The position numbers and the translations under genes were made by a program. A DNA stretch of 56,930 nt, counting the filler, from Sluysia triapertura (taxonomy: Eukaryota), in the NCBI GenBank assembly GCA_046118255.1. It is 4 parts of 4 records of this genome, joined end to end, with 100 filler letters (N's around TTAATTAATTAA, not from the genome) between each part and the next. Parts side by side here need not be neighbours in the genome. Positions count along the whole stretch, not along the records: positions 1 to 21,713 come from JBJNIA010250642.1; positions 21,814 to 33,923 come from JBJNIA010138615.1; positions 34,024 to 44,992 come from JBJNIA010190731.1; positions 45,093 to 56,930 come from JBJNIA010165259.1. One strand, 5' to 3'. Position 1 is the stretch's first letter. Every line of letters starts with the position of its first letter. The notes beneath the pieces are model-generated. The model was not told where the DNA came from. It worked only from the letters and a program-made list of their open reading frames with translations, and did no database searches. This document shows positions 273 to 55,650 of this stretch, one piece after another.

Positions 273-1170
273 TGTAACGTATAATCTGATAAAATAATAA
301 TTTATGTATTGTCTTAATGATACGTCATGTACTGATTTGAGAAATATAACATTGGTTTGTAGCTTTGTTTTTATAATGTATAGAATAGTCAACACGCAAT
401 AAAATTGAGTCGTAAATAATAGTTTTCATACATAAAATAACTAGTAATTTTTAATTATTGATTTTTTAATCATTTACCTATTATTAATTTTAATATTTTT
501 TCCTTATTTTATGATTTCAGGTATTGTTAAATTTCAGTTTCAGTAGTTAATGCCAAAAATCTGACTTTATTTAAAGCATCTGATACATTTGAAATCAATT
601 CTCGTATAAATATTACTTTGTTTTATATAAAGAATTAATCATTATCTTCATTATATATGCGTGCTTTATCACGCAATTTTTTCATTTGTGTGACATTAGG
701 ACCATTAATTTCGATAGCTTCTTCTCGTTTTACAACTTCATCTGTTTTAGAAGGTTCTTTTACTTTACTACTACTTTCATCAACTTTAGATGCATTTTCA
801 TGATCATGAATAAGATAAAGAACATACATACAAAAAGGAAAGGAAACAAACATATAGAGATTATTGAAACCGAAGCAGTCGTAATATCAAAAATAATAGT
901 AAAAACAATAACAATTACCAAATTATTATAACAATTTAATATTATTATGATAATTATTGCTATTTGGATACAAAAATTATCATGAGAGATTATTATTGTG
1001 ACAGTAATTATGATAACAGTAATCACAAGTTTATGGTAATTATGTATTATGACAGTGTTTATGTTTTAAATGAATCGAGTCACTTGTTTAACATTCTATT
1101 TATGTATGAAGTGTTGATTTGTGATGAAATGTGTTTGTGATTATGAATTGTAGATGTGGAGTTCACTATA
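273..1170 (-). mobile_element. LTR-like element copy A carrying a GRP94 fragment
   Basis: Minus strand starts TATAGTGAACTCC at 1170 (TGTAGTGAACTCC in the copy at 12459). Family motif TGAATCGAGT at 1071-1080. Candidate other end ...GTTACA at 273, with flanks AAAAT (268-272) and ATAAT (1171-1175). The left boundary is tentative. Confidence 0.55.
490..805 (-). pseudogene. HSP90B1: Decayed N-terminal fragment of ER HSP90 (GRP94/endoplasmin)
   Basis: Reads KEPSKTDEVVKREEAIEINGPNVTQMKKLRDK, then across frameshifts MINSLYKTK and IFIRELISNVSDALNKVRFLALT. Compare GRP94 [34 protein letters not shown]...[33 protein letters not shown]. Has deletions, frameshifts and a stop, and no intron. Confidence 0.9.
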
Positions 1171-3512
1171 ATAATTATTAAATTATTAATAATTTTAATT
1201 ATTATTTCATTATTATTAAATGTCTTCTACCATTAAAGTTTTAAAACTGAGATAAAAATTAACTTTTTGAAACTCAATTTCTGTGCTGATAAAGTCTTCA
1301 AAAACAGATCTACGTATGATTAATACCATGTTAATGTTTATCAACTCACGAGCCAAAAGAATTTTCAAATTCTTTTCAAGGTGGTGCAATCAGATTTAAA
1401 TATAAAACTTGTTTAAAGGTTTTTGAATTAACAGTAGCTGAAAAATTAACAGTTTTGTCATAGGCAAGATATAATGTAAAACTCTACCTTTCATCTTTTA
1501 TAAAACCCTGATAAATATTTCCCTTTGAATATATTTATTGTTGATACGTACAATAGCCATCATAAATTTTGATTGCACAATAAATTGTGTTAGTAATTAC
1601 TTCTACATTATTTTGCGTACAATATTATTTAGGTAATTATAATTATACTAGATGAGGGCTGTTGAAGAAAAAGAACAAATTATGAAATTCAAAAGTAATG
1701 GATTAATCTATAATTTAACATCAAAGAAAATACACCTAATATATCGCTGCTTGATGCTCTTTCTTAAAAAACGATTTATAAATCATTTAATTAAATGAAT
1801 TCTAATTGGAGAGCCAATTAGAATTTGGTTTAGTTGAGAGCAAATTTACCGTGTAAGTATTAAGAATTATTAAACAATTCGATATAATCAGTCACTTTTT
1901 CAATAGATTATTTAGAAAATTCCAAATATTTAACATTGAGTAACACTATTGATTTAAACAAATCATCCAGGAGAATGCTCCTTTTCTGCCCTAACCCATA
2001 GAATTATTTAACTTATGAAGAGCATATTAGAACAATTTACTTATAACGACTGCAAAGTCGCCATGAAGAACTTTATATTACATTGAAGCAAGATAAAACC
2101 ATAGAATTTTGATATACTCAATGATTGATAGGATTGGAGTTGAGACAGCAATATCATTACGCATTTGGCTCGATAGTTCACCAGATATTATATGTAATTA
2201 GATGGGTGGAATTTAAACGCTAGATAAAGACAAGACATTCGGCATAATAAATTAATCTAAAATGATTAAAGTGTAAAACACAACAATGAGTTGGGTCGAG
2301 TTAATAGAAAACAATGGTACTGAAACTTGTTATCGAATACCCTGAATATCGCAATGGTTACGTACATAACTAAAATCATATTTAAAATTCAAAACATCTC
2401 TAAGAATTGCTTTATTTCACATTGACCTTAGACAGTATCATGTTCGCTGAGGTAGCCGAATGTACGAACAATATCAAAATCAAGGGTAACTAATGCGCCA
2501 AATACACAATAAAGTGTCACACTTACCATTAAAAATAATATAATTAGAATTTTCTAGACAAAATAAAAACGAATACTACTTTCTTATATCATTAACGTCA
2601 ATGTTTTTATCATTAGTATTGTTGTACATTTTAGTATTATTATATTCAATTTTAAAAATTGCGTAGCTCATTAAGTAATTATTGTAATTTAGATTTAGTA
2701 AGGAAGGTCATCCTTAAAATTAATATTTAAAATACTAATTCTAAATTACAATAATAATTTAATTAAATTTATTCCTTGATAATTTCTTAATTAAAGGGTT
2801 TTGATACCAATGTAATAAAGTTATATTCTATGTACACATGTATGAAATCATATCTACTCTAGAATTTAATGCCTTCCAATTTAAAACAAATAGGCTGGCA
2901 ACAAGATGTTTATTTCGAATTGTTTTATTAGAAAGACTAAACACTTATTTGATTTACGTAGAAGTGGTTCATTTCGCACATCTTTTCAAACTGCTTATTT
3001 GGTAATAAATTATAAAATATTGAGTGCTAATTATGTTGTAAGAAGTCTAGTCACGCCATTTTCTTTTGAATTAGAGTCAATTCGAAATCAAGCAACTTAA
3101 TAAAATTTAAAAGTGTATTGGTATTTGTCTTTATTTCTACGAGAAAAACCATTGTTGCAAAATATGGTATTATAATATCAGTACCGCAGAGTAAAATATG
3201 TTCACACTAGTTCAGCTCATTCATTAAGACCATTCAAATTACAATGACAGCTTGTTAAAACGGCGTTACAAATACATCACCTCGTTAAACATAATTATAT
3301 AATTATGGTTAATGGAATACAGATTATTCTACTATTGTCCTTGACTAGGTTAGAATTTTTGAACAAAATGTTTATGATCCTGTAGAAGAAAGTGTAAAGA
3401 AAACTAAAAAAATACTAAGAGAAGGATGATAATAAAATAACACTGAGTAAAATCGAAGTTAAAACAAAATTCTAGTTGTTCGTTAATTTAATTTATTAAT
3501 TCATGTAATAAC

Positions 3513-3893
3513 CTGTAAAATTCCCGTAGATTCACGCAATCCATGATTACCACCAAGCGCAAACCGTACGCCACACTTACGCTTCATATTATAAACATAC
3601 ACTGGACATAAATTATGCAAAGGTCGATGATGAATACCGATAAGATTATTGCTTTTTTCAAATGTATCTTTGTATTGATTAGAAGCTGAAATTAAACTTG
3701 ACCAATCAATTGATCCCTTTATTGGATTGGTACGATTTGGACCGTAATCGAACAATCGCATAGCATCGTTGAGAAGTATACCGGAGTCAGTAAAAATTTT
3801 TGAACCAAACTTGGAGCCTAAACTGACCGTTAAAGACACATAGAGTGAATGTGAATCTAATGCTGATATATGGACTCCAGTTTGCCGGTCAAG
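3513..3893 (-). CDS. GGT7: Internal exon of a GGT7-like gamma-glutamyltransferase (light-chain region)
   Basis: TGVHISALD...SKFGSKIFTDSGILLNDAMRLFDYGPNRT...RPLHNLCPV...CGVRFALGGNHG...GILQ aligns with GGT7 TAAQVLIMG...PFGSGLITPSGILLNSQMLDFSWPNRT...RPLSFLLP...CGTYLALGANG...GLTQ. Acceptor tttcag at 3894-95; donor CAG|GT at 3511-12. Other exons were not identified. Confidence 0.85.
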
Positions 3894-53833: not shown

Positions 53834-54322
53834 CTAGTAACAACGTACGAAATAGCTATCAAAGAACGTTTAGCATTGAAAAAATATACTTACACTTATT
53901 TGGTAATAGATGAAGTACACCGAGTCAAAATAAAAAAAAGTAAATTATCTGAAGCTGTTCGTGCATTGAAAAGTGAAAATCGTTTATTAGTCACTGTTAC
54001 TCCATTACAAAACAAACTTCATGAGTTATGGGCTTTTCTAAATTTCTTAATGCCAGATATATTTAGTTCTACGGAAAGTTTTGATGAACATTTCAATACT
54101 TAAACGGTCGCCCAACAAAATTTAGTTCAACGTTTGCATACGATTTTAAAACCAGTTTTGAAGTAAGAAAAAATTACCTCCCAAAAAAGAAATCAAAGTT
54201 TATATAGGTTTGAATAAAATGCAACGGGAATTATATACAAAATTTTATCTAAAGATATCGATTATTTAAATATGAATGTCAAATTTACTGAACGAAATTG
54301 TTTACAGAATATTTTGATGCAA
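53834..54322 (+). pseudogene. Processed fragment of the ISWI (SMARCA5/1) ATPase
   Basis: VTTYE...[19 protein letters not shown]...[29 protein letters not shown]...LHTILKP...[23 protein letters not shown]...KDID.LN...LQNILMQ. DEAH is changed to DEVH and GTP to VTP; there is a stop, plus deletions and frameshifts; no intron. Confidence 0.92.
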
Positions 54323-54579
54323 CAAGCTATTTAACAGAACAAGAAAGAGAAGATATAACGGCCAGTGCACAGCATGCTTTAAGATTGATTACATTTAGAC
54401 AAATACATAAAGTTCTTGGTATAGAACAAATGGTACAGTCACTTGATGATAAACAGGGAAGTAACATACGGAAAAGAAGACATAGCCATGAAGAAAATAG
54501 CATTAATTCTCAGAAGGGAGATAAACGTGATGGTGTCAGGCTGGAGAGTACAGTTGAAACAAAAAAAGAGCCTGCATAA
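54313..54579 (+). pseudogene. C-terminal fragment of a DZF-domain protein (ZFR/STRBP/ILF3 family, most ZFR-like)
   Basis: [38 protein letters not shown]...RKRR versus [41 protein letters not shown]...RKRR; runs to a stop. Confidence 0.88.
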
Positions 54580-55650
54580 ATTGTATTTTTTTTTCGAAAT
54601 TAATTGTTTACATTTTATTGTCTAGTTCAAAAATATAAAATTTAACATTTTGATTCATGATTGGTCGATGTAAATCTAAGTCTAATTATTTAAATAATCC
54701 AAGTCTTGTACATTTAAATGTAATACACGTTTCAAATTTTATTATCATCATTATTATTAGTATTATTATTTTTTTTATTATTATTATTAATTCTTATTAT
54801 TGTTTTATTATTATTATTATTATGACTAAAATTTTTACTATTTTAGAGTATTATTTCATAAAAAGTCAACCTACAGTGATAAAAAGCTTAATAATATATT
54901 GTTTCTTAAAATATGTTTCATTTGATAATAGTGCCAAAAATTTTGCTTAATAATGATACATATGACCTATTAAAAATACAACAAGTTGAATGCTGATAGA
55001 GTTCAATAAATAATTTTAACAAGTTCAATATTTCAAATATTTTTAAATGTCAATTTAGTAGTTTTATTTTTAATAAACGTTTATTTATAGATGATATATA
55101 AAAATTAAGTTAAATAATAGTAATAACAATGATTCACAGATAACACAATGATTAATTGAAAAAGGAAAGTCTACTGTCTTAAATTAATCATAACTGTTTA
55201 ATAAAAGTTACACAAACAATAATACAAGAAGCAGTGTGCTCAAATAGACTGATACTGTTGAGAAACTTGATAGATAATAACAATATTTTTTTATTGTCAT
55301 ATTGTGTGCTAATTTATAATGTTTAAATTTTTTATTTTGAATTCATTAAAATTTTATTTTCCAATTTTTGTTTTAATATCCATAACAAGATCAAAATTTT
55401 TTGTTTATTTTTGTTTTAATTTGTTTTTAAATGAAACTCACAACAACATATATATACATAAAATATACACACATAGAAATGCGCACATTGAAAGTACTTA
55501 TGAATTTATTACACACTCATGGCATAAAAACATAAAAAATGCACAAATAAATATAGTTCAATTTTTGTTGAACTTAGTGTATGGTTATTTAATTTGCAAC
55601 GAATTATAAAAAACTGCAGAATATCGCGAGAATTTTTTTTACAAATAATA

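What the first reader, a model, noticed from the sequence alone, without database searches (positions are those of the whole stretch)
273..54960. LTR-like repeat family whose copies each carry different host-mRNA cargo (candidate Pack-LTR gene-capture system)
Seen: a ~300-bp arm recurs at ~820-1170(-), ~6400-6795(-), ~12150-12459(-), ~47030-47650(-) and 53540-53830(+), with weaker copies at ~31500-31800(-) and 32577(-). It is recognised by a TGTAGTG(A/T) start and/or the TGAATCGAGT and AAAAGGAAAGG motifs. Downstream in the same orientation lie unrelated, intron-free, decayed host coding pieces. GRP94 and ISWI::ZFR directly abut the arm; the filamin, signal-peptide and NHL-like relics lie a few hundred bp on. 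Copies A and G also appear to share a degenerate 3' arm (TA[C/T]GACT[C/A]AATTTT...ACTATT...ATAAAAA..AA[G/C]CTACA) ending in TACA, so the cargo would sit inside a TGTA...TACA unit. Copy B follows a gypsy GPY/F integrase end, where a 3' LTR is expected. Known: LTR retrotransposons can retropose host mRNAs by template switching, usually between two LTRs. Inference: here the cargo is swapped within the LTR itself, repeatedly, giving solo-LTR cassettes. A Ginger-type DNA transposon (TGT..ACA ends, GPY/F integrase) is the alternative. The candidate TSDs disagree in length (5 bp with a mismatch versus 4 bp), so boundaries are tentative.
Basis: partly seen in the sequence, partly recalled or inferred. 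Interest (0 to 1): 0.82.

Follow-up and report, generated by a model that had tools for sequence, protein, structure and literature searches.

The report
Mobile repeat carrying host gene fragments
A very abundant repeat in this AT-rich animal genome is followed by broken, uninterrupted pieces of unrelated host genes, and one two-gene piece is itself present in several copies; it is likely a retrotransposon end that copied host mRNAs, a known way of duplicating genes, and the idea that the cargo sits inside a single terminal repeat is untested.

Summary
The repeat is real. Copies A, B, C and F align far above background. D is tied to C; G and E are only weakly tied. Cargo is confirmed: GRP94 abuts A, an ISWI::ZFR chimera abuts G, and filamin and DUF5736 relics lie 0.7 and 0.4 kb on. 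Contigs of run X1 give G's head 1,800-3,500 times flank depth and its cargo 4-47 times, with deletion variants and a contig that leaves exactly at the ISWI/ZFR joint. So the cargo was re-amplified. The proposed 3' arm has only flank depth, the TSDs are chance-level, no inverted partner exists, and the GPY/F integrase is seen by eye only. Best reading: LTR-type retroelement capture of mRNA by template switching with secondary amplification (Tan et al. 2016). Cargo inside a single LTR is neither shown nor excluded; a head-plus-(ATT)n-tail retroposon is a live rival.

The parts
825..1170 (-). Arm A; starts TATAGTG
530..805 (-). GRP94/endoplasmin relic (residues ~30-126), no intron-sized interruption, frameshifted; begins about 20 bp after arm A
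   Evidence: E 1.4e-11
273..430 (-).
6440..6837 (-). Arm B; 5' start decayed; followed after ~85 bp by an assembly gap (6227-6355), so any cargo is hidden
6850..7069 (-). Possible gypsy integrase C-terminal (GPY/F-like) relic, broken by frameshifts; recognised by eye only
   Evidence: sequence; no hit
9246..9651 (-). Beta-tubulin relic, uninterrupted, frameshifted, 2.5 kb behind arm C (by eye it runs on to ~9080)
   Evidence: E 1.9e-11 for 9469-9651; weak Tubulin_C hits; one further frame gave no hit
10968..11669 (-).
   Evidence: no hit
12007..12156 (-). Segment directly behind arm C; matches 42921-43084(-) and is the best window match of G3
12150..12459 (-). Arm C; starts TGTAGTG
30603..30779 (-). 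Filamin repeat relic, ~680 bp behind arm D
   Evidence: E 2.8e-8
31480..31800 (-). Arm D, decayed, no TGTAG start; significant only against C
   Evidence: 0 of 400 vs C; 3 of 400 vs A
32300..32577 (-). Candidate arm E; TGTAGTG start, otherwise weak
   Evidence: 10 and 22 of 400
42921..43084 (-). Copy of the post-arm segment of C, without an arm
46325..46471 (-). DUF5736 relic; its ORF starts ~400 bp behind arm F
   Evidence: E 3.4e-7
47020..47671 (-). Arm F, split by a ~275-bp MITE-like insert at 47186-47461
53540..53827 (+). Arm G; starts TGTAGTG; very high-copy head with a sharp 5' boundary; kinship with A/B/C/F weak
   Evidence: flank contig ends at 53567; depth 25,307-49,828 vs 14.2
53828..54322 (+). 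ISWI (SNF2) relic, 174 residues in 495 nt, no intron; multi-copy
54316..54733 (+). ZFR C-terminal relic with stop (54579) and likely 3' UTR; overlaps the ISWI homology by 7 nt; multi-copy
54734..54834 (+). Decayed (ATT)n tract, where the multi-copy part of G last shows
54835..54960 (+).
   Evidence: record 8

Best explanation
The arm is a very abundant repeat, likely the terminal repeat of a non-autonomous gypsy-type retroelement, and the uninterrupted host gene pieces behind it were likely copied from mRNA when reverse transcriptase switched template, after which the ISWI::ZFR chimera multiplied further. Shown: the arm family, the sense-oriented relics, the very high depth of G's head, the multi-copy cargo with deletion variants, and a breakpoint at the ISWI/ZFR joint. 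Inferred: that the arm is an LTR, that capture went through RNA, and that the joints are template switches at short shared words. Open: where the element ends, and so whether the cargo lies between two LTRs, inside one, or before a microsatellite tail.
For: Arms A, B, C, F, D-C exceed 400 of 400 background segments. Relics. 5 of 5 arm-linked relic loci are on the arm's strand (1/32), and 3 of 7 relics lie within 700 bp of A, B, C, F or G (p 9e-4; 2 of 7 with A, B, C, F only, p 0.012). Run X1 (ratios): head 1,782-3,509x flank depth, cargo 4-47x. A 177-nt deletion variant stands at 6x. A 330-nt contig (3x, 3 differences in 166 nt) follows ZFR to 54316 and then leaves, exactly where ZFR homology starts and ISWI homology ends. 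A 2,163-nt flank-depth contig matches only 53887-54054 (27 differences in 168) and runs on unlike on both sides, inside the ISWI homology, as an exon of an intron-bearing parent would. Window genes have GT-AG introns with exons of about 240-340 nt; three uninterrupted cargos of 495, 246 and 258 nt would arise by DNA capture with p about 0.03 (rough, six exons). The starts fit the TGTNR pattern given for gypsy and Ginger ends (PMC2836005). Two-gene chimeras and re-retroposition are described for LTR-mediated retrocopies (PMC5131818).
Against: No second arm follows the cargo in A or G, and no PBS, PPT or LTR 3' end was located. The integrase tail got no hit in any tool. My by-eye gag and protease between C and B were wrong: that stretch is tubulin. 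G, the only copy with depth data, is weakly tied to A/B/C/F, so two families may be lumped. Two relics (U-box 24562+, KCNQ 36265+) have no arm, and my relic list is incomplete (197 of the 364-plus stop-free segments scanned). Parent genes were not seen, so intron loss and micro-homology are not shown. Depth is summed contig depth from one run, possibly the assembly's own source, and is no copy number.
Confidence: 0.55

Rival explanations
1. The reader's model, a special case of the best explanation: the LTR is arm plus a ~150-bp 3' part. C is an empty LTR, and in A and G the cargo is inserted at the ATT-rich middle, so that it is copied with the LTR and left behind in solo-LTR cassettes.
For: G3 has its best match of the whole window directly behind arm C, same strand (score 73; next 63.5; 0 of 400 background). 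A3 vs G3 was exceeded by 3 of 400. No second arm follows the cargo in A or G. ATT-rich sequence flanks G's cargo on both sides.
Against: G3 lies in one 2,092-nt contig of flank depth, and summed depth there is 8.5-26 against 59-662 over the cargo (the tool warns that its filters can cause dips, so this is a hint, not proof). The TSDs are chance-level. A3's best window matches are not arms. The G3-C match is AT-rich, its longest exact word being 9 nt.
Confidence: 0.2
2. The element is a non-LTR retroposon with a fixed TGTAG head and an (ATT)n tail; the variable middle takes up mRNA pieces during reverse transcription.
For: The multi-copy part of G runs from a sharp 5' end to the (ATT)n tract and is not seen beyond it. 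The 5' flank and the end of the tract share TTATG, though this is cheap in such a tract. No second LTR is seen.
Against: A, D and F show no such tract behind their cargo (one search lists four tracts in the window). No tRNA or Rfam match and no unusual fold (z -0.86 and 0.49) mark the head as SINE- or ribozyme-like. No poly(A) signal or tail follows ZFR. B follows an integrase-like tail, by eye.
Confidence: 0.15
3. A DNA transposon (Ginger/GingerRoot, Pack-TIR or Helitron) captured genomic DNA of the host genes.
For: TGT starts and GPY/F are shared with Ginger1 (PMC2836005). GingerRoot and Pack-TIRs carry gene fragments (PMC6839031, PMC8277862). Single cargos are short enough to fit in one exon (p 0.17-0.42 each).
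Against: None of 5 heads tested has an inverted partner in the window, and the profile finds none. The flanks are not CCGG/CCGT. The flank-depth ISWI contig breaks off twice inside the region where the cargo is continuous.
Confidence: 0.07
4. Arms and gene relics are both common and meet by chance; the multi-copy cargo comes from ordinary segmental duplication.
For: 7 relic loci in 57 kb, 2 without an arm and 1 at 2.5 kb. D and G were noticed partly because of their cargo.
Against: Two relics begin within 20 bp of an arm end. Enrichment p is 0.012 to 6e-5. G's multi-copy stretch starts at TGTAG while the flank just outside is single-copy.
Confidence: 0.05

Closest known systems
LTR-mediated retrocopies in animals (Tan et al. 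2016, PMC5131818; abstract, passages and section 5 read, supplements not read)
   Same: Partial mRNA pieces truncated at both ends, no poly(A) tail, fused to repeat sequence; chimeras of two unlinked genes; further amplification as non-autonomous units.
   Different: There the retrocopy replaces part of the internal ORFs and both LTRs are present. Here the cargo starts within 20 bp of a ~290-350 bp arm, no second arm follows, the head is extremely abundant, and five arm-linked relic loci lie in 57 kb.
Ginger1/Ginger2 DNA transposons (Bao et al. 2010, PMC2836005; passages) and GingerRoot (PMC6839031; passages)
   Same: TGTNR start; GPY/F in Ginger1; gene fragments inside GingerRoot.
   Different: These need terminal inverted repeats and, for Ginger1, CCGG/CCGT target duplications; neither is present here.
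Pack-TIRs (Tan et al. 2021, PMC8277862; passages)
   Same: Host sequence inside an animal transposon, with multi-copy families.
   Different: DNA-level capture between inverted repeats; here there are no inverted repeats and the cargo is uninterrupted.
TRIMs and their solo LTRs, e.g. ant PbTRIM (PMC3532108; abstract and outline only)
   Same: Small, abundant non-autonomous LTR-type repeats in AT-rich, gene-near sites.
   Different: TRIMs have two direct repeats and 4-bp TSDs; the abstract reports no mRNA cargo.

Membership tests
LTR-mediated retrocopy (Tan 2016) | Partial host coding piece, sense to the element, no poly(A) tail | tested here: met
LTR-mediated retrocopy (Tan 2016) | Chimeras of two unlinked genes | tested here: met
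   ISWI::ZFR, (record 6 leaves at 54316)
LTR-mediated retrocopy (Tan 2016) | Secondary amplification of the chimera | tested here: met
   cargo depth 4-47x flank, deletion variant 6x; whether the copies are dispersed was not seen
LTR-mediated retrocopy (Tan 2016) | Introns of the parent gene are missing | tested here: inconclusive
   cargo uninterrupted; exon-like 168-nt block in a flank-depth contig; parent sequence not available
LTR-mediated retrocopy (Tan 2016) | Micro-similarity at junctions | tested here: inconclusive
   ISWI and ZFR homologies overlap by 7 nt; parents not seen
LTR-mediated retrocopy (Tan 2016) | LTR element sequence on both sides; both LTRs present | tested here: not met
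   no second arm behind the cargo of A or G; C...tubulin...B could be one old two-arm unit, but B is closer to A than to C
Gypsy LTR | TG (TGTNR) 5' end | tested here: met
   C, E, F, G start TGTAG, A starts TATAG; B and D lack it; sharp boundary at G
Gypsy LTR | CA 3' end with 4-6 bp target duplication | tested here: inconclusive
   candidates at chance level
Gypsy LTR | Adjoins gag-pol in some copies | tested here: inconclusive
   GPY/F-like tail before B by eye only; no hit; no gag, protease or RT found between C and B
Gypsy LTR | Primer-binding site and polypurine tract | not tested
   LTR ends are not defined and no host tRNA set was available (0 tRNA in the window)
Ginger / Pack-TIR | Terminal inverted repeats at both ends | tested here: not met
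   0 of 5 heads with an inverted partner
Ginger1 | CCGG/CCGT target duplication | tested here: not met
   5' flanks of A, C, E, G are TTAT, TATT, TGGT, TATG
SINE / ribozyme-bearing retroposon | tRNA-, 7SL-, 5S- or ribozyme-derived head | tested here: not met
   0 Rfam matches at E<=1; 0 tRNA

The most novel reading that the evidence does not exclude
A retroelement family with thousands of copies swaps host mRNA pieces in and out at one fixed ATT-rich site inside its terminal repeat, serially (ZFR and ISWI captured in separate steps), and spreads each cargo as its own subfamily: an animal retro-counterpart of Pack-MULEs that strews the genome with a gene relic every ~10 kb.
Probability: 0.2. 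Interest if true: 0.8.

Novelty: new variant of a known kind. Interest (0 to 1): 0.52.

Why it matters
LTR-mediated retroposition in animals is known from modest numbers of loci. Here a single 57-kb window holds five arm-linked relic loci from six genes, and one two-gene cargo has multiplied, which suggests gene-fragment capture and exon shuffling at genome scale in a compact, gene-dense animal genome. If the capture site is fixed inside the terminal repeat, the family would be a natural model for how reverse transcriptase picks switch points and why cargo persists in solo repeats. Practically, such relics inflate gene counts and confuse orthology.

Tried and rejected
No whole genome is held, so no genome-wide profile search was possible. 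The host's own ISWI, ZFR and DUF5736 parents were not found among public proteins (best ZFR hits are other animals); three window ORFs are not in the collection by exact sequence. Two exact arm patterns found 0 matches in JGI metagenomes. One run holds 52900-56900 and no RNA holder is listed, which says nothing on expression. One bin (54753-54813) has no cover because repeat letters were skipped; it is not used as evidence. A decayed gag and protease that I read by eye between C and B was rejected: it is beta-tubulin. GPY/F confirmation failed in Pfam, PDB, the representatives library and the Atlas; a frameshift-tolerant gypsy profile test stays open. TIR pairing was rejected. An RNA-structure role was rejected. 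A second repeat family (13.8, 30.3, 37.5 kb) was tested as a 3' arm or second LTR of D and rejected (31-366 of 400 background segments as good). A two-arm cassette around the U-box relic was rejected (58 of 400). Searches used frames that gave no hit. Literature: 'Pack-LTR' in 0 papers; 0 papers with all five terms; searches listed no report of mRNA cargo inside an LTR (listings only). The library lacks most subscription papers, and the junction data in the supplements of PMC5131818 were not read and may hold switch points inside LTRs. No earlier findings exist for this genome or for the arm sequences.

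
Full report
Setting. The window is 25% GC and holds animal genes with GT-AG introns: DnaJ, GGCT (38-bp intron), a GGT exon and SARM1. No whole genome is held, so the evidence comes from the window, public protein libraries and one sequencing run, X1.

The arm. Copies A (1170-), B (~6837-), C (12459-) and F (47671-, split by a ~275-bp insert) form a clear family. Pair scores of 87-181 were reached by 0 of 400 random real segments, with z 4.6-16.8 against shuffles for the same pairs. D is significant only against C. G and E share the TGTAGTG start but are weakly tied: G was exceeded by 3-6 of 400 over its length and by 25-171 of 400 for its head; E by 10-22 of 400. 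A profile of A, B, C, F finds none of D, E, G. No head has an inverted partner (0 of 5). There is no Rfam or tRNA match and no unusual fold.

The cargo. I scanned 197 stop-free segments against Pfam: 195 chosen by composition from 364 of at least 40 aa, plus two short ones. Targeted searches followed. GRP94 residues 30-126 begin about 20 bp behind A. ISWI (174 residues in 495 nt) begins at the end of G and is fused to the ZFR C-terminus, the two homologies overlapping by 7 nt at 54316-54322. Filamin lies 677 bp behind D and the DUF5736 ORF 396 bp behind F. A beta-tubulin relic lies 2.5 kb behind C; I had first misread it as a gypsy protease. The ORFs behind C matched nothing. All five arm-linked loci are on the arm's strand. 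Two further relics, a U-box and a KCNQ piece, have no arm. Enrichment within 700 bp is 2 of 7 with A, B, C, F (p 0.012), 3 of 7 adding G (p 9e-4) and 4 of 7 adding D (p 6e-5). The list of relics is incomplete and D and G were noticed partly through their cargo.

Copy evidence at G. 637 contigs of X1 were laid on 53350-55150 at 80% likeness or more; only 8 pieces were listed. The flank has depth 14, and its contig ends at 53567, which puts the repeat boundary at the TGTAG start. The next 180 bp have 1,782-3,509 times that depth, and the cargo bins 4-47 times. Summed depth is no copy number, but the contrast is large. A 172-nt contig at 10x covers ISWI without gaps. A variant lacking 177 nt stands at 6x. 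A 330-nt contig at 3x follows ZFR with 3 differences in 166 nt and leaves the window at 54316, the ISWI/ZFR joint. A 2,163-nt flank-depth contig matches only 53887-54054 at 84% and goes on unlike at both ends, though ISWI homology continues; an exon of the parent gene would look like this, but I could not read the contig. So the chimera was assembled at a real breakpoint and then amplified.

The 3' end. The multi-copy stretch is last seen at a decayed (ATT)n tract (54734-54834). The tool warns that filters can cause dips, so this is a hint against a shared 3' arm rather than proof. The proposed TSDs are chance-level. In the other direction, G's post-cargo segment finds its best window match directly behind arm C (73 vs next 63.5; 0 of 400), as an empty LTR would give, but the match is AT-rich. 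The end of the element is unresolved.

LTR identity. It rests on the TGTAG start, which fits the TGTNR pattern that Bao et al. give for gypsy and Ginger (PMC2836005, passages), and on a frameshifted GPY/F-like tail before B. I recognise that tail from memory, and no tool confirmed it. No gag, protease or RT was found between C and B.

Mechanism. Most likely (0.55) a non-autonomous LTR-type element is packaged with host mRNAs, reverse transcriptase switches template at short shared words, and the chimeric copies are transcribed and retroposed again. Amplification and the chimera are shown; RNA origin, template switching and LTR identity are inferred. Within this, cargo inside a single LTR (0.2) is neither shown nor excluded. 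Rivals are a head-plus-(ATT)n-tail retroposon (0.15), DNA capture by a Ginger/Pack-TIR/Helitron element (0.07) and chance (0.05).

Comparison. Tan et al. 2016 (PMC5131818; abstract, passages and section 5) describe partial retrocopies with micro-similarity, two-gene chimeras and secondary retroposition, with the cargo replacing internal ORFs between two LTRs. This finding works like that, but fails the two-LTR feature at A and G, so it is not filed as a plain member. Ginger, GingerRoot and Pack-TIRs (passages) need inverted repeats. Gene capture by LTR elements in plants is common (PMC13477047, passages). No paper with 'Pack-LTR' was found, and none with all terms. Two earlier unchecked notes of this scan describe amplified gypsy retrocopies in other genomes, which makes the basic process less surprising.

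Verdict. A real, very abundant repeat with captured and re-amplified host gene pieces; a new variant of a known kind; interest 0.52. It rises to about 0.8 if a fixed capture site inside the terminal repeat is shown.

Noticed in passing
window 13782-14058(+), 30232-30519(-), 37455-37761(-): A second three-copy repeat family, unrelated to the arm by alignment.
   Followed up: partly
window 18334-19560(+): Three in-line ORFs (161, 140, 87 aa) with no Pfam or PHROG hit; possibly one decayed long ORF of unknown, perhaps mobile or viral, origin.
   Followed up: partly
window 43818-44180(-): Intact, intron-free, strongly diverged RPS17; a single-exon gene or a retrocopy; no arm upstream.
   Followed up: no
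window 48700-53424(-): SARM1/TIR-1 exons (ARM exon confirmed; SAM- and TIR-like pieces by eye). G lies antisense just upstream of the ARM exon, perhaps in an intron.
   Followed up: partly
window 24040-24730(+) and 36265-36426(+): Decayed U-box (UBOX5-like by eye) and KCNQ relics without a detectable arm.
   Followed up: partly
window 47186-47461: MITE-like insert with CAG...CTG ends inside arm F (hAT-like, from memory).
   Followed up: no
window 47823-47879 and 48107-48163: 57-nt inverted arms around a 227-nt core just upstream of F.
   Followed up: no
window 26302-26556 and 27418-27666: A 250-bp direct repeat at 79% identity, 1.1 kb apart, around a 205-aa ORF with no family hit.
   Followed up: no
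window 55651-56628(+): Intact single-exon 326-aa ORF with a signal peptide, LRR-like middle and TM segment by eye; no Pfam hit.
   Followed up: no
window 16117-16329(+) and 50527-50673(+): Short relics resembling Merlin/IS1595 and mariner transposases (from memory; no Pfam hit).
   Followed up: no
window 5700-5990(-): Cys-bearing coding-like relic behind the gap after B, possibly B's cargo; no Pfam hit.
   Followed up: partly
window 1170, 6837, 12459: Arms A, B and C are spaced almost equally (5,649 and 5,655 bp); one interval holds a gap of estimated size, so this may be chance.
   Followed up: no
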